Positions 465 through 31,730 of a stretch of 32,689 nt of DNA are shown in pieces. Positions within the stretch are counted from its first letter, which is position 1. Each line of letters opens with the position of its first letter. The notes below the pieces were generated by a model that saw only the letters and a program-made list of their open reading frames with translations, was not told the DNA's origin and did no database searches. The stretch comes from a virus (taxonomy: Duplodnaviria > Heunggongvirae > Uroviricota > Caudoviricetes), in the IMG/VR virus record IMGVR_UViG_2859783438_000003; one strand, 5' to 3'. A program made the position numbers and the translations under genes.

Positions 465-522
465 AGATATACCTCCAGTTAAGGATTAAATTTTATTTAC
501 AGTGCCGGGTAATGACTCCAAC

Positions 523-726
523 TTATTGATAGTGTTTTATGTTCAGATAATGCCCGATGACTTTGTCATGCAGCTCCACCGATTTTGAGAACGACAGCGA
601 CTTCCGTCCCAGCCGTGCCAGGTGCTGCCTCAGATTCAGGTTATGCCGCTCAATTCGCTGCGTATATCGCTTGCTGATTACGTGCAGCTTTCCCTTCAGG
701 CGGGATTCATACAGCGGCCAGCCATC
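523..726 (-). CDS. insB: IS1 InsB transposase, C-terminal part (5' part in gap)
   Basis: Translation ...[67 protein letters not shown] matches the IS1 InsB C-terminus. Confidence 0.8.
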
Positions 727-826
727 NNNNNNNNNNNNNNNNNNNNNNNNNNNNNNNNNNNNNNNNNNNNNNNNNNNNNNNNNNNNNNNNNNNNNNNNNN
801 NNNNNNNNNNNNNNNNNNNNNNNNNN
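727..826. other. assembly gap (100 N) inside IS1; replaces roughly 330 bp of IS1 given the 768-bp element length
   Basis: Run of exactly 100 N between recognisable IS1 segments. Confidence 0.95.
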
Positions 827-989
827 TCTGGTGCGTACCGGGTTGAGAAGCGGTGTAAGTGAACTGCAGTTGCCATGTTTTACGGCAGTGAGAGCAGAGA
901 TAGCGCTGATGTCCGGCAGTGCTTTTGCCGTTACGCACCACCCCGTCAGTAGCTGAACAGGAGGGACAGCTGATAGAAACAGAAGCCAC
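827..989 (-). CDS. insA: IS1 InsA, N-terminal part (3' part in gap)
   Basis: Translation [54 protein letters not shown], the zinc-finger N-terminus of IS1 InsA. Confidence 0.8.
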
Positions 990-1116
990 TGGAGCACCTC
1001 AAAAACACCATCATACACTAAATCAGTAAGTTGGCAGCATCACCACAGTGCTGAACTTAATTATTCAGATTTTGGATTATGCTTTCTCTTCACGAAGTTC
1101 CGATTGTTAATTTGGC

Positions 1117-1455: not shown

Positions 1456-1506
1456 CGTCTCGCGACCGCTCAGACGTACAAGTTCAACAACCTGCCCTTT
1501 AATTTT

Positions 1507-1955
1507 TGAGGTAGCCTGAGTTTAACGGACACTCCTTCCTGAAATAGAATGGCATCAGAAGGAGCTAATAATGAGCAGAAAAACCCAACGTTACTCTAAA
1601 GAGTTCAAAGCCGAAGCTGTCAGAACGGTTCCTGAAAATCAACTTTCGATCAGTGAAGGCGCTTCCCGATTATCTCTTCCTGAAGGCACTTTAGGACAAT
1701 GGGTTACCGCCGCCAGAAAAGGGCTCGGTACTCCTGGTTGAACGCTGAAAAATGAGAGCCTGAGCCACTATCGTTTTAATAACCGGGATGAAGCCATCTC
1801 AGTAATACGGGAATACATTGAGATTTTCTACAATCGTCAGCGTCGTCACTCTCGTCTGGGGAATATCTCCCCGGCAGCCTTCAGGGAAAAATATCATCAG
1901 ATGGCTGCTTAAAAAAAGAACAAATGGTAGTGTCCGCTATTGCCAGTACACCTCA
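1507..1955 (+). mobile_element. IS3-family (IS600-like) remnant with internal deletion
   Basis: Starts TGAGGTAGCCTGAGTTTAACGGACACTCC and ends ...GGTAGTGTCCGCTATTGCCAGTACACCTCA (imperfect inverted repeat, TG...CA termini); orfA N-terminus MSRKTQRYSKEFKAEAVRTV... joined to an orfB C-terminus ...YNRQRRHSRLGNISPAAFREKYHQMAA. Confidence 0.7.
1571..1741 (+). pseudogene. IS3-family orfA, truncated by the internal deletion
   Basis: MSRKTQRYSKEFKAEAVRTVPENQLSISEGASRLSLPEGTLGQWVTAARKGLGTPG then stop; a second copy of the same N-terminus lies inverted at 11974..12081. Confidence 0.6.
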
Positions 1956-9102: not shown

Positions 9103-10956
9103 ATGGCATTTAAACACTATGACGTGGTCAGGGCGGCATCGCCGTCAGACCTTGCGAAACGACTGACACAAAAACTGAAGGAGGGCTGGCAGCCGTTTGG
9201 TAGTCCGGTGGCCATAACCCCTTATACCCTGATGCAGGCGATTGCAGCAGAAGGTGATGTGGTCGTCAGTGGTGCAACTGAGCCGGAGTGGTACTACGTC
9301 ATCGTACTGGCCGGGCAATCCAATGCCATGGCTTACGGTGAAGGTCTTCCGCTTCCGGATTCATACGATGCGCCCCATCCGCGCATTAAGCAACTGGCCC
9401 GTCGTAACACAGTGACTCCCGGTGGTGAAGTATGCGTATTTAACGACATCATTCCTGCTGACCATTGTCTGCATGATGTTCAGGATATGAGTACGATTAA
9501 CCATCCCCGGGCTGACCTGAGCAAAGGGCAGTACGGCTGTGTCGGACAGGGCTTACATATTGCCAAAAAACTGCTTCCGTATATCCCTAATAATGCGGGG
9601 ATCCTGCTGGTACCATGCTGTTGTGGTGGTTCGGCATTCACCCAGGGCACGGAGGGGACATTCAGCGAGTCCACGGGGGCCAGTCAGGATTCGGCTCGCT
9701 GGGGAGTGGGTAAGCCGTTATATCAGGATCTGCTTTTCCGCACGAAGGCAGCATTGCAGAAAAACCCGAAAAACGTTTTGCTGGCGATATGCTGGATGCA
9801 GGGGGAATTCGATATGACGAATGCCAGTTACGCCCAGCAGCCAGCAGCATTTCTTGCAATGGTACAGCAGTTCCGTGCTGACCTTGCCGGGCTGGCGGCG
9901 CAGTGTCACGGTGGAAGTCCGGCATCAGTCCCCTGGATTTGTGGCGACACGACATACGCGTGGAAACAAGAACACGGTACGCAATATGAAGTGGTATATG
10001 GTGCATATAAAGGTAAAGAATCCCAGCAGATTTATTTTGTTCCCTTTATGACCGATGGTAGCGGAGTTAATACACCGACAAACAACCCGTCAGAAGATCC
10101 TGATATTGCCGGGTCTGGTTATTACGGTTCGGCATCCCGAACGAACAAAAACTGGGTATCATCAAATCGCCCGACGCATTTCAGCTCATGGGCGCGTCGT
10201 GGCATTATTCCCGATCGTATGGCAACTGCTATTCTGAACGTAGCCGGTCGCACCTTAGCCTTCATTAGTGGTAAGGCACCGGAAATCAAACCCTCGCCCG
10301 GCGGCGACACGCCATCGGGGCCGTCTGAAGATGCATCCATACGCACAATCTCCCTGTTGCCGACAGCCGGAGACGCTGCTGCGCAGGGCTGGAGCATTAA
10401 GAATGGCGGAGTTCAGTTGTCAGATGGTGTATTTAAGATCACCAAGCAGAGCAATAAAGCCTGGTCCCTGACGCGCCCGGTGGATGACGCAGTCTCCCTG
10501 CTGACACGGGGTGGCAGACTGAGCTGTAAGTTTCGACTGTCAGGCGCACTGACCAACAACCAGTTCGGTCTGGGAATTTATCTGTATACCGATGTAGCGT
10601 TACCTGACGTCGTGGCGATGACCGGGACTGGTAACCCGTTCCTGATGTCGTTCTTCACCCAGACCACAGACGGCAAACTGAATCTGATGCATCACAAGAA
10701 AGCAGGAAACACAAAGTTGGGCGAGTTCGGGAATTACAGTAACGACTGGCTGACGCTGGAGCTGGTGTTCACCGCCGGCAGTGCCACGGTTACTCCGAAA
10801 CTGAATGGAGTGGCTGGCCCGGCATTCCAGGTCATAAAAGACAGTCTGACACTGGGGCTGAATGCGCTGACGCTGACGGATATTACCAAAAATGCAGCGT
10901 ATGGCGTTGAGATAGAAAGTCTGGTGCTGGAGATAAATGCACCGGCATCATCATAA
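9103..10956 (+). CDS. NanS-p-like sialate O-acetylesterase (DUF1737 N-terminal domain + SGNH/SASA esterase core)
   Basis: 617 aa; N-terminus MAFKHYDVVRAASPSDLAKRL... and VIVLAGQSNAMAYGEG with the SGNH-type Ser; sits where prophage nanS-p genes sit downstream of the Q-tRNA block. Confidence 0.8.
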   Translation: MAFKHYDVVRAASPSDLAKRLTQKLKEGWQPFGSPVAITPYTLMQAIAAEGDVVVSGATEPEWYYVIVLAGQSNAMAYGEGLPLPDSYDAPHPRIKQLARRNTVTPGGEVCVFNDIIPADHCLHDVQDMSTINHPRADLSKGQYGCVGQGLHIAKKLLPYIPNNAGILLVPCCCGGSAFTQGTEGTFSESTGASQDSARWGVGKPLYQDLLFRTKAALQKNPKNVLLAICWMQGEFDMTNASYAQQPAAFLAMVQQFRADLAGLAAQCHGGSPASVPWICGDTTYAWKQEHGTQYEVVYGAYKGKESQQIYFVPFMTDGSGVNTPTNNPSEDPDIAGSGYYGSASRTNKNWVSSNRPTHFSSWARRGIIPDRMATAILNVAGRTLAFISGKAPEIKPSPGGDTPSGPSEDASIRTISLLPTAGDAAAQGWSIKNGGVQLSDGVFKITKQSNKAWSLTRPVDDAVSLLTRGGRLSCKFRLSGALTNNQFGLGIYLYTDVALPDVVAMTGTGNPFLMSFFTQTTDGKLNLMHHKKAGNTKLGEFGNYSNDWLTLELVFTAGSATVTPKLNGVAGPAFQVIKDSLTLGLNALTLTDITKNAAYGVEIESLVLEINAPASS

Positions 10957-11041
10957 AAAGTGAGCCAGCCAAATGGAAGGTATCGTTAAACTCACCGGTA
11001 GTGTCAGTGGGTCGTCTGAGATGCCTGCATGAGTTATCAGA

Positions 11042-11071
11042 GCCATCAGTACTTAACTGGTGGCTTTTTTT
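11042..11071 (+). terminator. intrinsic terminator between nanS-p and S
   Basis: Hairpin gccatcag...ctggtggc followed by ttttttt; lies inside the upstream extension of the holin ORF, arguing for the 11107 start. Confidence 0.4.
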
Positions 11072-11106
11072 ATTGTTGTCAGCTTCCGGATAACGGGAGA
11101 CGGGGT

Positions 11107-11322
11107 ATGTACCAGATGGAAAAAATCACAACAGGTGTGTCATACACCACGTCAGCGGTGGGAACGGGCTACTGGTTCCTGCAGTTGCTGGACAGGGTTT
11201 CCCCGTCTCAGTGGGCGGCAATAGGCGTGCTGGGGAGTCTGCTGTTTGGGCTGCTGACATATCTGACTAACCTGTATTTCAAAATCAGAGAGGACCGTCG
11301 TAAGGCTGCACGGGGAGAGTAA
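11107..11322 (+). CDS. S: holin S, class II / pinholin-like (S21 type), dual-start motif
   Basis: [71 protein letters not shown]; two TM segments and a charged C-terminus; Met1/Met4 dual start. Confidence 0.8.
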
Positions 11323-11326
11323 TTCA

Positions 11327-11641
11327 ATGACTCAAAACTATGAACTGATTGTGAAAGGGATCCGCAATTTTGAGAATAAAGTTACGGTAACTTTAGCGTT
11401 ACGGGACAAAAAACGCTTTGACGGTGAAATTTTTGACCTGGACATCTCGCTGGACCGTGTTGAAGGTGCCGCGCTGGAGTTTTATGAGGCAGCAGCCAGA
11501 AGGAGCATCAGACAGGTCTTCCTGGATGTTGCTGCCGGGTTATGTGAAGGGGACGAGCTGTTGCCAGAAACGCGCCCCTGTTCAGAGGCGCGGTATACCA
11601 TAAAAATTAACAGTTCTGATAACTCGATTACGGGTTGTTAG
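11327..11641 (+). CDS. YdfR-like protein (DUF1327) between holin and endolysin
   Basis: 104-aa ORF in the holin-to-endolysin position, as in cryptic lambdoid prophages of E. coli; assignment by position and recollection, not by search. Confidence 0.5.
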   Translation: MTQNYELIVKGIRNFENKVTVTLALRDKKRFDGEIFDLDISLDRVEGAALEFYEAAARRSIRQVFLDVAAGLCEGDELLPETRPCSEARYTIKINSSDNSITGC

Positions 11642-11696
11642 CTTTTTGCAGTTGGCTTTCCAGTATCTTTCATTGGTAGCATCCTGATAAATATCC

Positions 11697-11750
11697 ATGA
11701 GCGCAAAAATCAAATACGGCCTGTCAGCTGCTGTTCTGGCGCTGATTGCA
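11697..11750 (+). pseudogene. R: SAR endolysin R, only the N-terminal signal-anchor retained
   Basis: Frame opens MSAKIKYGLSAAVLALIA, then loses lysozyme-like sequence and stops after 56 codons inside a tandem repeat. Confidence 0.5.
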
Positions 11751-11873
11751 AAATGGCATCTGAATCGATCGCAGTTTGGCATTCGAATCGATCATGATTT
11801 GGCATCCATCTCCGATCACAGTTTGGCATCACAATCGATCACGATTTGGCATACTTCCGATCATTGATTGGAA
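11751..11873 (+). repeat. five tandem 23-24-bp direct repeats (TTTGGCAT..ATCGATCA..A), each with a GATC, ending at the gap
   Basis: Units read at 11751, 11775, 11798, 11822, 11845, then ttggaa and the N run. Confidence 0.8.
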
Positions 11874-11973
11874 NNNNNNNNNNNNNNNNNNNNNNNNNNN
11901 NNNNNNNNNNNNNNNNNNNNNNNNNNNNNNNNNNNNNNNNNNNNNNNNNNNNNNNNNNNNNNNNNNNNNNNNN
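11874..11973. other. assembly gap (100 N), size unknown
   Basis: Run of N between the tandem repeats and an inverted IS3-family left end. Confidence 0.95.
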
Positions 11974-12145
11974 AAGAGATAATCGGGAAGCGCCTTCACT
12001 GATCGAAAGTTGATTTTCAAGAACCGTTCTGACAGCTTCGGCTTTGAACTCTTTAGAGTAACGTTGGGTTTTTCTGCTCATTATTAGCTCCTTCTGATGC
12101 CATTCTATTTCAGGAAGGAGTGTCCGTTAAACTCAGGCTACCTCA
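11974..12145 (-). mobile_element. IS3-family (IS600-like) left end, second copy, inverted relative to 1507..1955
   Basis: Reverse complement of the 1507..1680 sequence (1 mismatch seen); orfA N-terminus MSRKTQRYSKEFKAEAVRTVLENQLSISEGASRLSL on the minus strand; terminal ...cctca at 12145. Confidence 0.75.
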
Positions 12146-12292
12146 GCCGGAAGAACAGACTGGCTTCCTCTCTGTTCATCGGCAGATAGCCTATTTCATC
12201 CAGGATCAACACCCGGGCATAACTCAGTTGCTGTAGCTGACGCTCCAGCCGGTTTTCCTGTTTCGCTTTCAATGTAAAAGTCCTCTCTGCTC
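12146..12292 (-). pseudogene. fragment of an IS21-family IstB-like AAA+ helper gene
   Basis: Minus-strand translation ...KQENRLERQLQQLSYARVLILDEIGYLPMNREEASLFFRL has the LILDE.GY Walker-B signature; stop just upstream and the IS3-family end downstream. Confidence 0.4.
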
Positions 12293-12395
12293 AGCATGTT
12301 GATGTCCTTTCTGGTGTGAGAACCTTAAGGAAACAACATGTTGGGTGGAGCGGACAATCCAAATGGCGAATTACCGTCTTATATCACTGGCGCTG

Positions 12396-12473
12396 ACATC
12401 TCCGGATGACGGGGGCAGCTGTTATCTCTGGCTCAACCGTGGGCAACCACCCGCAGTTAACCGGCGACGATAA
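12396..12473 (+). pseudogene. 3' remnant of a lambda FII-like head-tail joining gene
   Basis: Translation ...SPDDGGSCYLWLNRGQPPAVNRRR* resembles the lambda FII C-terminus; no similarity further upstream. Confidence 0.5.
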
Positions 12474-12487
12474 ACGCAGGGTGAATT

Positions 12488-13063
12488 ATGGCGATAAAAG
12501 GGCTTGATCAGGCGATTGACAATCTGAGCCGGGTTCGTAAAAACGCCATTCCGGCTGCTTCTGCAATGACCATTAACCGCGTGGCCACAACGGCGATTAA
12601 TCAGTCTTCGTCACAGGTTGCCCGGGAAACCAGGGTGAGACGGAAACTGGTAAAGGAACGGTCCAGACTGAAACGGGCGACGGTCAGAAATCCGAATGCC
12701 AGAATTATCGTTAACCGCGGTGATCTCCCTGTGATTAAGCTGGGGATCAGAATGCTGGGGCGTCGTCCGAACAGCATACTCAAAGCCGGTCAGCATCGTT
12801 ATCAGCGGGCATTTATCCAGCGATTAAATAATGGGCGCTGGCATGTTATGCAACGTCTTCCCCAGGCCAGATATGAGGAGGGCAATGACGACAAGGGAAG
12901 GAAAAAGCGTAATCGCCTTCCCATTCAGGTGGTGAAAATCCCGATGGCGGCCCCACTGAAACAGGCATTTGATGAGAATGTTGACCGTATCCGGCGTGAA
13001 CGCCTGCCTAAAGAACTGGCATACGCGCTGAAACAACAACTGAGGATTGCGATAAAACGATGA
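12488..13063 (+). CDS. Z: tail completion protein Z
   Basis: MAIKGLDQAIDNLSRVRKNAIPAASAMTINRV... and C-terminal [23 protein letters not shown] closely resemble lambda gpZ. Confidence 0.85.
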   Translation: MAIKGLDQAIDNLSRVRKNAIPAASAMTINRVATTAINQSSSQVARETRVRRKLVKERSRLKRATVRNPNARIIVNRGDLPVIKLGIRMLGRRPNSILKAGQHRYQRAFIQRLNNGRWHVMQRLPQARYEEGNDDKGRKKRNRLPIQVVKIPMAAPLKQAFDENVDRIRRERLPKELAYALKQQLRIAIKR

Positions 13064-15100: not shown

Positions 15101-18008
15101 TCTTGTTATTGACCTGAGTCTGGATGCTGTCCGTTTCGATGAGCAGATGAGCCGGGTAAGGCGTCATTTTTCAGGTCTGGATACCGACGCCAGAAAAACC
15201 GCCAGTGCTGTTGAACAGGGCCTGAGCCGCCAGGCGCTGGCTGCACAAAAAGCCGGGATTTCCGTCGGGCAGTATAAAGCGGCCATGCGAACCCTGCCCG
15301 CACAGTTTACGGATATCGCCACGCAGCTTGCCGGTGGTCAGAATCCCTGGCTGATCCTGCTGCAACAGGGCGGTCAGGTGAAGGACTCCTTCGGCGGGAT
15401 GATCCCCATGTTCAGGGGGCTTGCCGATGCGATCACCCTGCCGATGGTCGGGGTCACCTCGCTGGCGGTGGCGACAGGTGCACTGGTGTACGCCTGGTAC
15501 CAGGGAGATTCCACGCTTTCAGCGTTTAATAAAACCCTGGTTCTTTCCGGTAATCAGTCCGGACTGACTGCCGATCGTATGCTGACTCTCTCAAGAGCCG
15601 GGCAGGCAGCAGGGCTGACGTTTAACCAGGCGAGAGAGTCACTGGCAGCCCTGGTGAATGCCGGTGTGCGTGGTGGTGAACAGTTTGATGCCATCAACCA
15701 GAGTGTCGCGCGTTTTGCGTCTGCATCCGGTGTGGAGGTGGATAAAGTCGCTGAAGCCTTCGGGAAGCTGACCACTGACCCGACGTCGGGACTGATGGCG
15801 ATGGCGCGCCAGTTCCGTAACGTGACGGCAGAGCAGATTGCGTATGTTGCACAGCTGCAGCGTTCCGGAGACGAGGCCGGGGCATTGCAGGCGGCGAACG
15901 ATATCGCCACGAAAGGCTTTGATGAGCAGACCCGTCGCCTGAAAGAAAACATGGGAACACTGGAGACCTGGGCGGATAAAACAGGGAAGGCATTCAAATC
16001 GATGTGGGATGCCATTCTGGATATCGGTCGTCCGGAATCCTCAGCGGATATGCTCGCCAGTGCGCAGAAGGCATTTGATGAGGCGGATAAAAAATGGCAG
16101 TGGTACCAGAGTCGGAGCCAGCGCCGCGGTAAAACCTCCTCTTTCCGGGCCAACCTTCAGGGCGCATGGGATGACCGGGAAAATGCCCGTCTGGGTCTGG
16201 CAGCGGCAACGCTGCAGTCGGATATGGAAAAAGCCGGTGAACTGGCGGCAAGGGACAGGGCTGAGCGTGAGTCGTCACAGCTGAAGTATACCGGAGAGGC
16301 GCAGAAGGCGTATGAGCGCCTGCTGACGCCACTGGAGAATGCAGTCGGATATGGAAAAAGCCGGTGAACTGGCGGCAAGGGACAGGGCTGAGCGTGAGTC
16401 GTCACAGCTGAAGTATACCGGAGAGGCGCAGAAGGCGTATGAGCGCCTGCTGACGCCACTGGAGAAATATACCGCCCGGCAGGAAGAGCTGAATAAGGCC
16501 CTGAAAGACGGGAAAATCCTGCAGGCGGATTACAACACGCTGATGGCGTCGGCAAAAAAGGATTATGAGTCGACGCAGAAAAAGCCGTCCGGTGTGAAGG
16601 TGTCTGCCGGTGAGCGCCAGGAAGACCAGGCGCATGCAGCCCTGCTGGCGCTTGAAACTGAGCTCAGGACGCTGGAGAAGCACAGCGGTGCGAATGAAAA
16701 AATCAGCCAGCAGCGCCGTGATTTATGGAAAGCGGAAAATCAGTATGTNNNNNNNNNNNNNNNNNNNNNNNNNNNNNNNNNNNNNNNNNNNNNNNNNNNN
16801 NNNNNNNNNNNNNNNNNNNNNNNNNNNNNNNNNNNNNNNNNNNNNNNNAAGACCAGGCGCATGCAGCCCTGCTGGCGCTTGAAACTGAGCTCAGGACGCT
16901 GGAGAAGCACAGCGGTGCGAATGAAAAAATCAGCCAGCAGCGCCGTGATTTATGGAAAGCGGAAAATCAGTATGTGGTCCTGAAAGAGGCCGCCACGAAA
17001 CGGCAGTTATCTGAGCAGGAAAAATCCCTGCTGGCCCATGAGAAAGAAACGCTGGAGTACAAACGCCAGCTGGCTGAGCTGGGCGACAAGATTGAACACC
17101 AGAAACGGCTGAATGAGCTGGCACAGCAGGCGGCGCGGTTTGAACAGCAGCAGAGCGCGAAGCAGGCGGCAATCAGCGCAAAAGCCCGCGGACTCACCGA
17201 CCGTCAGGCGCAGCGGGAGTCGGAAGAGCAGCGCCTTCGTGAGGTGTACGGTGATAATCCGGCTGCGCTGGCGAAGGCCACATCTGCACTGAAGAACACC
17301 TGGTCTGCGGAGGAGCAGCTTCGTGGAAGCTGGATGGCCGGGATGAAGTCCGGCTGGGGCGAGTGGGCGGAAAGTGCGACGGACAGTTTTTCGCAGGTTA
17401 AAAACGCGGCCACGCAGACCTTTGACGGTATTGCACAGAATATGGCAGCGATGCTGATCGGCAGCGAACAGAACTGGCGTGGTTTCACCCGTTCTGTGCT
17501 GTCCATGCTGACAGAGATTTTTCTGAAGCAGGCGATGGTGGGGATAGTCGGGAGTATCGGCAGCGCCATTGGCGGTGCTTTCGGTGGTGGTGCGTCTGCC
17601 TCCACGGGGACGGCCATTCAGGCTGCGGCGGCGAACTTCCATTTCGCGACCGGGGGATTTACGGGGACGGGGGGTAAATATGAACCTGCGGGGATTGTTC
17701 ATCGCGGGGAGTTTGTCTTCACGAAGGAGGCGACCAGCCGGATTGGTGTCGGCAATCTGTACCGCCTGATGCGGGGCTATGCGGAAGGTGGTTATGTCGG
17801 CGGTGCCGGAAGTCCGGCGCAGATGCGGCGGGCGGAAGGCATTAATTTTAATCAGAACAATCACGTGGTGATTCAGAACGACGGCCCCAACGGGCGGGCA
17901 GGGCCGCAGCTGATGAAAGCGGTGTATGAGATGGCCCGCAAGGGGGCACAGGATGAACTCCGGCTGCAGTTGCGTGATGGCGGTATGTTATCAGGGAGCG
18001 GTGGATGA
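15081..18008 (+). CDS. H: tail tape measure protein H (reading frame broken in this assembly)
   Basis: N-terminus MSQPVGDLVIDLSLDAVRFDEQMSRVRRHFSG and C-terminus ...NNHVVIQNDGPNGRAGPQLMKAVYEMARKGAQDELRLQLRDGGMLSGSGG resemble lambda gpH; split into three track ORFs by a 125-bp tandem duplicate and an N gap. Confidence 0.8.
16214..16463 (+). repeat. 125-bp tandem duplication inside H (16214..16338 and 16339..16463) that shifts the frame
   Basis: Two adjacent near-identical copies differing by one base at the junction; the frame-0 ORF stops at 16367 and a frame-1 ORF restarts at 16339. Confidence 0.8.
16749..16848. other. assembly gap (100 N) inside H, flanked by an identical 127-bp direct repeat (16622..16748 and 16849..16975)
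   Basis: The 127 bases before and after the N run read identically, typical of overlapping contig ends that were not merged. Confidence 0.85.
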
Positions 18009-31411: not shown

Positions 31412-31511
31412 NNNNNNNNNNNNNNNNNNNNNNNNNNNNNNNNNNNNNNNNNNNNNNNNNNNNNNNNNNNNNNNNNNNNNNNNNNNNNNNNNNNNNNNNN
31501 NNNNNNNNNNN
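31412..31511. other. assembly gap (100 N)
   Basis: Run of N between an IS110-like start and an IS1 3' part. Confidence 0.95.
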
Positions 31512-31730
31512 GATGGCTGGCCGCTGTATGAATCCCGCCTGAAGGGAAAGCTGCACGTAATCAGCAAGCGATATACGCAGCGAATTGAGCGGCATAACCT
31601 GAATCTGAGGCAGCACCTGGCACGGCTGGGACGGAAGTCGCTGTCGTTCTCAAAATCGGTGGAGCTGCATGACAAAGTCATCGGGCATTATCTGAACATA
31701 AAACACTATCAATAAGTTGGAGTCATTACC
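31512..31730 (+). mobile_element. insB: IS1, 3' part of a second copy (InsB C-terminus 31512..31715 plus terminal repeat)
   Basis: Same InsB C-terminal translation as 523..726 and terminal ...caataagttggagtcattacc. Confidence 0.85.

What the first reader, a model, noticed from the sequence alone, without database searches (positions are those of the whole stretch)
11751..11873. Five tandem 23-bp repeats, each with a GATC, at the break point of the endolysin
The units (consensus TTTGGCAT, 3-4 variable bases, ATCGATCA, 2 bases, A) start exactly where endolysin homology ends and run to the contig edge at the gap. Arrays of about 22-bp direct repeats at an element terminus are characteristic of transposase binding sites in IS21-family and Tn7- or Mu-like elements, and an IstB-like fragment lies just across the gap in the matching orientation. 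Alternatives are an iteron-like origin or partition site with clustered Dam sites, or a collapsed repeat at a contig end.
Basis: inference. Interest (0 to 1): 0.45.

Follow-up and report, generated by a model that had tools for sequence, protein, structure and literature searches.

The report
Orphan left end of insertion sequence ISSso4
The five 23-bp repeats are the transposase-binding sites at the left tip of a catalogued IS21-family insertion sequence (ISSso4) that landed in a prophage lysis gene and was later truncated, so the feature is real but ordinary.

Summary
Window 11747-11873 is, base for base, the first 127 nt of ISSso4, a 2638-bp IS21-family insertion sequence. It holds five units spaced 23-24 bp apart, each made of TTTGGCAT, a 3-5 nt variable spacer, and CGATCA. 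It starts where an rrrQ-type phage lysozyme breaks off after codon 18.

Intact copies put the array at the TG tip upstream of istA-istB. A shorter inverted set of three units sits at the CA tip. Three of four intact copies checked have 5-bp target duplications.

Two points need correcting:
- The IstB fragment across the gap belongs to IS21 proper, a different element. It lies on the opposite strand, behind an IS600.
- Finished chromosomes with the same junction show only 285 nt of ISSso4 here, cut off by IS600. The array is an orphan end.

The array stops at the gap because the window is built from k=127 contigs, and the contig runs exactly 127 nt into a multicopy repeat.

The iteron, partition-site and assembly-artefact readings are rejected. 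GATC also occurs in units of related elements from Burkholderia and Bradyrhizobium, so it is probably part of the recognition motif. Already known; low interest.

The parts
11697..11750 (+). 5' stub of a phage lysozyme (rrrQ-type endolysin): start codon plus 18 codons. Only nt 11697-11746 are phage DNA; codon 18 is completed by the first IS bases. It reads on into the IS as a 56-aa fusion ORF (11697-11867).
   Evidence: 100% identical to intact E. coli lysozyme genes up to 11749. 18/18 residues match WP_001737095-type lysozyme, Pfam Phage_lysozyme.
11742..11746 (+). CTGAT, the presumed left copy of the 5-bp target-site duplication. The right copy has been lost with the deletion.
   Evidence: Three independent intact copies have 5-bp duplications directly outside the TG...CA tips and one has 7 bp. 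For this site it is an inference.
11747..11873 (+). ISSso4 left terminal repeat region, nt 1-127 of the element, starting with the terminal TG.
   Evidence: 127/127 identity to the ISSso4 copy in L001. Found in 339 plasmid records, many at 99-100%. PGAP names the adjacent genes 'IS21-like element ISSso4 family' istA/istB.
11752..11774 (+). Unit L1 (AATGGCAT-CTGA-ATCGATC-GCAG), the terminal IstA binding unit.
11775..11797 (+). Unit L2 (TTTGGCAT-TCGA-ATCGATCA-TGA).
11798..11821 (+). Unit L3 (TTTGGCAT-CCATC-TCCGATCA-CAG), 24 nt.
11822..11844 (+). Unit L4 (TTTGGCAT-CACA-ATCGATCA-CGA).
11845..11867 (+). Unit L5 (TTTGGCAT-ACT-TCCGATCA-TTGA).
11868..11873 (+). Start of a decayed sixth unit (TTGGAA...), cut by the contig end. 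The sixth unit is intact in the relatives L015 and L016.
11874..11973 (.). 100-N placeholder. In finished chromosomes with the same junction it stands for 1250 bp: ISSso4 nt 128-285 (including the first 54 nt of istA) followed by 1092 nt of IS600.
11974..12145 (-). IS600 (IS3 family), 172 nt at its left end, with the orfA start at 12081.
   Evidence: Annotated IS600 matches. Pfam HTH_Tnp_1. Position within the 1264-bp IS600 of L007.
12146..12271 (-). Internal fragment of istB of IS21 proper (Walker B region), interrupted by IS600. It is not part of ISSso4.
   Evidence: 98.4% to IS21 istB in L003. Pfam IstB_IS21. Only 9/16 residues align to ISSso4 IstB. No blastn match to ISSso4.
12272..12399 (-). 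IS21 left end (102 nt) plus the first 26 nt of its istA. In the window it is joined directly to the istB fragment, skipping 1567 bp that finished relatives have.

Best explanation
The array is the left terminal repeat region of ISSso4, an IS21-family insertion sequence.

How it works. Each 23-bp unit is one binding site for the IstA transposase. By analogy with the solved IS21-family transpososome, the two conserved blocks, TTTGGCAT and CGATCA, sit about one helical turn apart and would be read by the two N-terminal helix-turn-helix domains of one IstA subunit. The variable spacer would not be read. The two outermost units of each end are the ones shown to be needed for synapsis and cleavage at the terminal CA. 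IstB, the AAA+ partner, captures target DNA and activates IstA. The inner units (L3-L6) are extra sites of unproven role. They may aid transpososome assembly or repress the nearby istA promoter region.

History here. ISSso4 inserted into codon 18 of a lambdoid prophage lysozyme gene. An IS600-associated deletion or recombination then removed everything beyond nt 285 of ISSso4, together with the rest of the lysis and head genes. It joined what was left to an IS600 sitting in an IS21 copy next to the tail genes. The array is therefore an orphan end. It can still be bound by IstA made from intact copies elsewhere, but it cannot transpose as an element.

Shown: the identity of the array, its position at the tip, the architecture at both ends, conservation of the two blocks, the truncation, and the reason for the contig break. 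Inferred: that IstA binds these particular units, and the block-to-domain assignment.
For: Identity:
- Window 11747-11873 equals nt 1-127 of a 2638-bp element, 100%.
- That element's genes are annotated ISSso4-family istA/istB.
- The gene products hit rve + Mu-transpos_C_2 and IstB_IS21 in Pfam.

Architecture:
- Intact copies start with TG and end with CA. Target duplications are 5 bp in three copies and 7 bp in one, in unrelated flanks: an IS66 gene, the pINV spa region, and others.
- Five composite units lie at nt 8-123 of the left end. Three units lie in inverted orientation at the right end.
- 8 of the element's 13 GATC sites lie in these units.

Conservation:
- Among relatives with 79-92% IstA identity, the two blocks are conserved while the spacers vary. 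Unit number ranges from 3 to 6.
- Elements with 42-47% IstA identity in Pseudomonas, Burkholderia, Bradyrhizobium, and ISEc12 and ISAs29, each have their own 23-bp arrays: 3.3-4.9 copies on the left. TRF scored a right-end array (2.6-3.4 copies) in only two of the five, Pseudomonas and Bradyrhizobium.

Literature (PMC10122671):
- IS21 terminal repeats consist of multiple direct repeats (L1/L2, R1/R2) spaced 23 bp apart.
- Each repeat has two conserved segments about 10 bp apart, contacted by HTH-1 and HTH-2 of IstA.
- Two complete repeats are required for integration.

Remnant status: finished chromosomes with the identical junction show ISSso4 nt 1-285 followed directly by IS600.

Contig break: the window carries 127-nt duplicated overlaps at other contig joins, and the array contig ends exactly 127 nt into the IS.
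Against: - No binding or footprinting data exist for ISSso4 IstA in anything I could search. The unit-to-protein assignment is by analogy with IS5376/IS21.
- The right end of this copy is absent, so the target duplication at this site cannot be checked.
- The terminal right-end unit R1 has a poor first block (TTCCGCT), so the two ends are not equivalent.
- ISfinder itself could not be queried. The name ISSso4 rests on PGAP product names of identical copies.
Confidence: 0.95

Rival explanations
1. The array is an iteron-like replication origin or a partition (parS-like) site with clustered Dam sites, belonging to the prophage or to a plasmid.
For: It has tandem ~23-bp direct repeats, each with a GATC, and it is frequent on plasmids (339 records).
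Against: - In every intact copy examined the array sits at the tip of a 2.6-kb unit carrying istA/istB. That unit is flanked by target duplications and inserted in unrelated genes.
- An inverted set of the same units lies at the other tip.
- No rep or par gene is consistently adjacent.
- In the window it interrupts a lysozyme reading frame.
Confidence: 0.01
2. The array is an assembly artefact: a collapsed or mis-extended repeat at a contig end.
For: The window does carry assembly artefacts. There are duplicated 127-nt overlaps at 16213-16466 and across gap 16749-16848, and there are unmarked skipped IS interiors. The contig ends inside the array's element.
Against: The identical 127 nt, and the identical junction with the lysozyme, occur in finished chromosomes of more than 4.5 Mb and in hundreds of complete plasmids. 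Only the end point of the contig is technical, not the repeats.
Confidence: 0.02
3. The array and the IstB fragment across the gap are two ends of one IS21-family element.
For: Both are IS21-family sequences, a nominal 100 N apart.
Against: - The IstB fragment is 98.4% identical to IS21 proper.
- It has no blastn similarity to ISSso4 and aligns to ISSso4 IstB only over 16 residues.
- It is on the minus strand, whereas the array precedes istA on the plus strand.
- Finished relatives place IS600 between them, with ISSso4 ending at nt 285.
Confidence: 0.01

Closest known systems
ISSso4 (IS21 family), as annotated on Shigella sonnei pSS_046 and many Escherichia/Salmonella plasmids
   Same: 100% identical over all 127 nt present, and over 285 nt in finished relatives. 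Same TG tip and same five units upstream of istA.
   Different: Here it is only a 285-nt remnant. It has no istA/istB and no right end, and it is truncated by IS600.
IS21 / IS5376 terminal inverted repeats (L1-L2(-L3), R1-R2), bound by IstA in the cryo-EM cleaved-donor complex (PMC10122671)
   Same: 23-bp spacing of the direct repeats. Two conserved blocks per repeat about one helical turn apart. A terminal TG/CA. More units on the left than on the right.
   Different: The motif sequence is different. ISSso4 has five to six left units and three right units, not two to three. Every unit contains GATC.
Multiple transposase-binding repeats at the ends of Mu and Tn7
   Same: Several direct copies of the transposase recognition sequence at each end. 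The transposases (MuA, TnsB) are related RNase-H-fold DDE enzymes with an AAA+ partner.
   Different: No MuA/TnsB-type genes and no Mu or Tn7 end sequences are present. The element is a 2.6-kb two-gene IS.
Dam-regulated ends of IS10, IS50 and IS903 (established knowledge, not tested here)
   Same: GATC lies inside the transposase binding region of an IS in a Dam-positive host.
   Different: No evidence exists for Dam control in ISSso4. GATC also occurs in the units of relatives from Burkholderia and Bradyrhizobium, genera that to my knowledge lack Dam.

Membership tests
IS21 family (ISSso4) | Near-identity to a catalogued family member. | tested here: met
   127/127 nt to copies whose genes PGAP names 'IS21-like element ISSso4 family'. 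285/285 nt in finished relatives. The ISfinder reference itself was not available.
IS21 family (ISSso4) | Terminal 5'-TG...CA-3' and short target-site duplications (5 bp reported for the IS21-family element studied in PMC10122671). | tested here: met
   TG at 11747. Intact copies end in CA, with 5-bp duplications in three and 7 bp in one. The duplication cannot be checked in the window because the right end is deleted.
IS21 family (ISSso4) | Ends made of multiple direct repeats about 23 bp apart, each with two conserved blocks, in inverted orientation at the two ends. | tested here: met
   Five units on the left and three on the right. Matches the description in PMC10122671.
IS21 family (ISSso4) | istA (DDE transposase) followed by istB (AAA+ helper) between the ends. 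| tested here: not met
   Met in intact copies. At this locus only the first 54 nt of istA remain in finished relatives. The window therefore holds a remnant of a member, not a functional member.
IS21 family (ISSso4) | IstA binds the repeated units. | not testable with these tools
   Inferred from the IS5376 structure and biochemistry.
Iteron origin / partition site | Repeats adjacent to a cognate rep or par gene, in a fixed replicon context. | tested here: not met
   The array travels with istA/istB into unrelated sites. Here it lies inside a lysozyme gene.
Tn7-like / Mu-like transposon end | A TnsB or MuA transposase gene set and the matching end repeats. | tested here: not met
   Intact copies encode only IstA and IstB within 2638 bp.

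The most novel reading that the evidence does not exclude
Every IstA-binding unit of ISSso4-group elements contains an invariant GATC: 40 of 40 units that carry a GATC (the anchor used to define a unit), and the decayed sixth unit has none. Dam methylation state might therefore modulate IstA binding and tie transposition, or istA repression, to passage of the replication fork, as in IS10 and IS50. That would make five or six tandem methylation-sensitive sites an unusually steep switch. The orphan array in the chromosome might also titrate IstA made by the plasmid-borne copy.
Probability: 0.12. Interest if true: 0.35.

Novelty: already known. Interest (0 to 1): 0.08.

Why it matters
It matters little beyond annotation. 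It explains why the prophage lysozyme is dead. It shows how the prophage lost its head and terminase genes, through nested ISSso4, IS600 and IS21 events. It explains why the short-read assembly breaks here.

It is a clean textbook example of the multi-repeat ends of the IS21 family. The comparison across relatives (23-bp arrays of 3-6 left units, each clade with its own two-block motif) may be useful for recognising IS21-family ends automatically.

Tried and rejected
- blastn of the whole ISSso4 against the window found only the 127-nt end, which rules out a second piece of the element.
- A sigma-70 promoter and terminator scan of the left end of an intact copy found nothing. No promoter claim is made.
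- A literature search for IS21 together with Dam/GATC returned only incidental hits.
- The Dam-adaptation idea was weakened by finding GATC in units of relatives from Burkholderia and Bradyrhizobium, and none in the Pseudomonas and ISAs29 relatives.
- No E. coli complete genome carries the lysozyme-IS junction: 0 of 5426 cover 80% or more of the query.
- The genome-contig scan returned only Enterobacterales relatives. More distant relatives had to be taken from the plasmid collection.
- The organism was not established directly. The IS set seen in the window (IS1, IS21, IS600, ISSso4) all belongs to the 12 IS listed for Shigella sonnei 53G (PMC7373316). An intact, 100% identical ISSso4 lies on S. 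sonnei pSS_046. This is circumstantial.

Full report
**Observation.** The window at 11740-11873 reads ...GCGCTGAT|TGCAAAATGGCATCTGAATCGATCGCAG TTTGGCATTCGAATCGATCATGA TTTGGCATCCATCTCCGATCACAG TTTGGCATCACAATCGATCACGA TTTGGCATACTTCCGATCATTGA TTGGAA, followed by 100 N.
- Tandem Repeats Finder calls a period-23 array (11754-11852, 4.3 copies, score 98) and a period-47 version (score 136). The repeat finder gives the same register.
- The composite motif TGGCAT-N6-9-GATC occurs at 11754, 11777, 11800, 11824 and 11847, and only once elsewhere in the window.
- None of 2000 dinucleotide shuffles of the segment reached two composite sites or five TGGCAT.

**The endolysin break.** The ORF at 11697 starts MSAKIKYGLSAAVLALIA. 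This is 18/18 identical to the N-terminus of a 177-aa E. coli prophage lysozyme (Pfam Phage_lysozyme).
- DNA identity to more than a thousand intact E. coli copies stops at 11749.
- No complete E. coli genome in the collection has the junction.

**What the array is.** The 134-nt query matches 339 plasmid records, many at 99-100%. In two of them the array lies about 105 nt upstream of genes annotated 'IS21-like element ISSso4 family transposase' (istA) and 'helper ATPase IstB'.
- The copy in L001 is 2638 bp long, starts TGCAAAATGG and ends GGAATACGCA. It is flanked by a CTCCT duplication inside an IS66 gene.
- Other intact copies and relatives have GGCAT and CTGTA duplications, and one has a 7-bp duplication.
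- Window 11747-11873 equals nt 1-127 of this element at 100%. Nothing else in the window resembles it.
- IstA hits rve and Mu-transpos_C_2, and IstB hits IstB_IS21.
- The right end carries three units of the same kind in inverted orientation: R1 with a degenerate first block, R2 with TTGGCAT, and R3 with TTCGCAT. All three have CGATCA.
- Eight of the element's 13 GATC sites lie in these terminal units.

**Comparison with what is known of the family.** Spinola-Amilibia et al. (PMC10122671, read) report the following:
- IS21 terminal inverted repeats are composed of multiple direct repeats (L1-L2, R1-R2), usually at least two.
- The repeats are separated by 23 bp.
- Each repeat has two conserved segments about 10 bp apart, contacted by HTH-1 and HTH-2 of IstA.
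- Two complete repeats are needed for integration.
- Insertions carry 5-bp duplications.

ISSso4 fits this on every count and has more units.

**Relatives.** Ten loci with 79-92% IstA identity in Serratia, Klebsiella, Erwinia, Enterobacter and others keep the blocks TTTGGCAT and CGATCA while the spacers vary.
- They have between three and six left units.
- The sixth unit, decayed in ISSso4 (TTGGAAT..GCCAGTCA), is intact in some of them, for example L015 and L016.

Five elements at 42-47% IstA identity each have their own 23-bp arrays: 3.3-4.9 copies on the left, and TRF scored right-end arrays (2.6-3.4 copies) in two of the five, Pseudomonas and Bradyrhizobium. Their motifs differ:
- A Pseudomonas plasmid: ATTCCACG-N-CTTGGACA, without GATC.
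- ISAs29: TGAACAC-N-ATTCCGG, without GATC.
- ISBmu3 in Burkholderia, a Bradyrhizobium element, and ISEc12: all contain GATC.

The 23-bp multi-unit end is thus a general trait of this branch of the family. GATC is best read as part of the recognition motif rather than a Dam-specific device. That Burkholderia and Bradyrhizobium lack Dam is my own knowledge and was not tested here.

**Closing the gap with relatives.** The 56-aa fusion ORF (11697-11867) is on record in 196 blocks of public assemblies, 75 of them with contigs above 1 Mb. Three finished or near-finished chromosomes (L007, L010, L012) are collinear with the window at 99.9-100%.
- In them the window's 100 N stand for 1250 bp. These are ISSso4 nt 128-285, identical to the intact copy and including 54 nt of istA, followed directly by the end of a 1264-bp IS600 on the minus strand.
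- Beyond IS600 lies istB of IS21 proper (truncated to 184 aa), a full istA, the IS21 left end, and then tail genes Z, U and onward.
- ISSso4 is therefore an orphan left end here.
- The two flanks of IS600 are unrelated: ISSso4 istA on one side and IS21 istB on the other. This implies an IS600-associated deletion or recombination between two IS600 copies. That event also removed the remainder of the lysozyme, and the terminase and head genes expected between lysis and tail modules (inference).
- Other strains (L005, L006, L008, L009, L011) have yet another arrangement beyond the same IS600.

**The IstB fragment.** Window 12146-12271 (minus strand) is 98.4% identical to IS21 istB, and 12272-12399 to the IS21 left end plus 26 nt of its istA.
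- It aligns with ISSso4 IstB only around the Walker B motif (9/16 residues).
- It belongs neither to the same element nor to a matching orientation.

**Why the array stops at the gap.** The contig ends exactly 127 nt into the IS.
- The window also has a perfect 127-nt tandem duplication at 16213-16466, and the same 127 nt on both sides of the gap at 16749-16848.
- It has unmarked joins that skip IS interiors: 1567 bp of IS21 at 12271|12272, and the IS600 interior at 1739|1740.
- This is the signature of k=127 de Bruijn contigs laid end to end (the k-mer attribution is inference). The end of the array at the gap is technical. The array itself is genuine.

**Verdict.** The set of IS in the window (IS1, IS21, IS600, ISSso4) all belongs to the list for Shigella sonnei 53G in PMC7373316, which suggests but does not prove the host. 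The only mildly open point is whether the invariant GATC in each unit gives Dam-dependent control. No literature on this was found, and the comparative evidence leans against a dedicated role.

Noticed in passing
window 16213-16466 and 16622-16748 / 16849-16975: There is a perfect 127-nt tandem duplication inside the tape-measure gene, and an identical 127 nt on both sides of the 100-N gap. Finished relatives have one copy. These are contig overlaps (k=127) left untrimmed, not biology.
   Followed up: yes
window 12271|12272: An unmarked join abuts 127 nt of IS21 istB to 128 nt of the IS21 left end. Finished relatives (L007) have 1567 bp of IS21 between them, so the apparent internal deletion of IS21 is probably an assembly shortcut.
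   Followed up: partly
window 1506-1955: The two ends of an IS600 (234 nt and 216 nt) are joined at 1739|1740 without the interior. This is another collapsed IS.
   Followed up: partly
window 506-1044 and 31512-31730: The gaps at 727-826 and 31412-31511 are flanked by IS1 sequence, judged by matches to the IS1 copy in L005. At least three of the four gaps in the window sit at IS copies; the gap at 16749-16848, inside the tape-measure gene, shows only the 127-nt contig overlap noted above.
   Followed up: partly
window 9103-13063: The prophage goes straight from the lysis cassette (617-aa DUF1737/SASA protein, class II holin, DUF1327/YdfR, lysozyme stub) to tail genes Z and U. There are no Rz, terminase, portal or head genes, so it is a defective prophage shaped by nested IS events. 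In other strains (L005 type) the sequence beyond the same IS600 differs again.
   Followed up: partly
L025 (Burkholderia glumae plasmid, ISBmu3) 980-1280: The left end of this distant relative has about four direct 23-bp units, followed by about four units of the same motif in inverted orientation (period 21). None of the other elements looked at has this arrangement.
   Followed up: no
L003 (E. coli plasmid NZ_CP054233.1) 1057-5160: Two complete IS21 copies lie in direct tandem, separated by a few bases. This is the (IS21)2 arrangement known to be the reactive form for IS21 cointegration.
   Followed up: no
L016 / L017 (Serratia fonticola plasmid pSR07_2): Two copies of an ISSso4 relative on one plasmid each lack matching target duplications. 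This suggests recombination between the copies, or movement as a composite unit.
   Followed up: no
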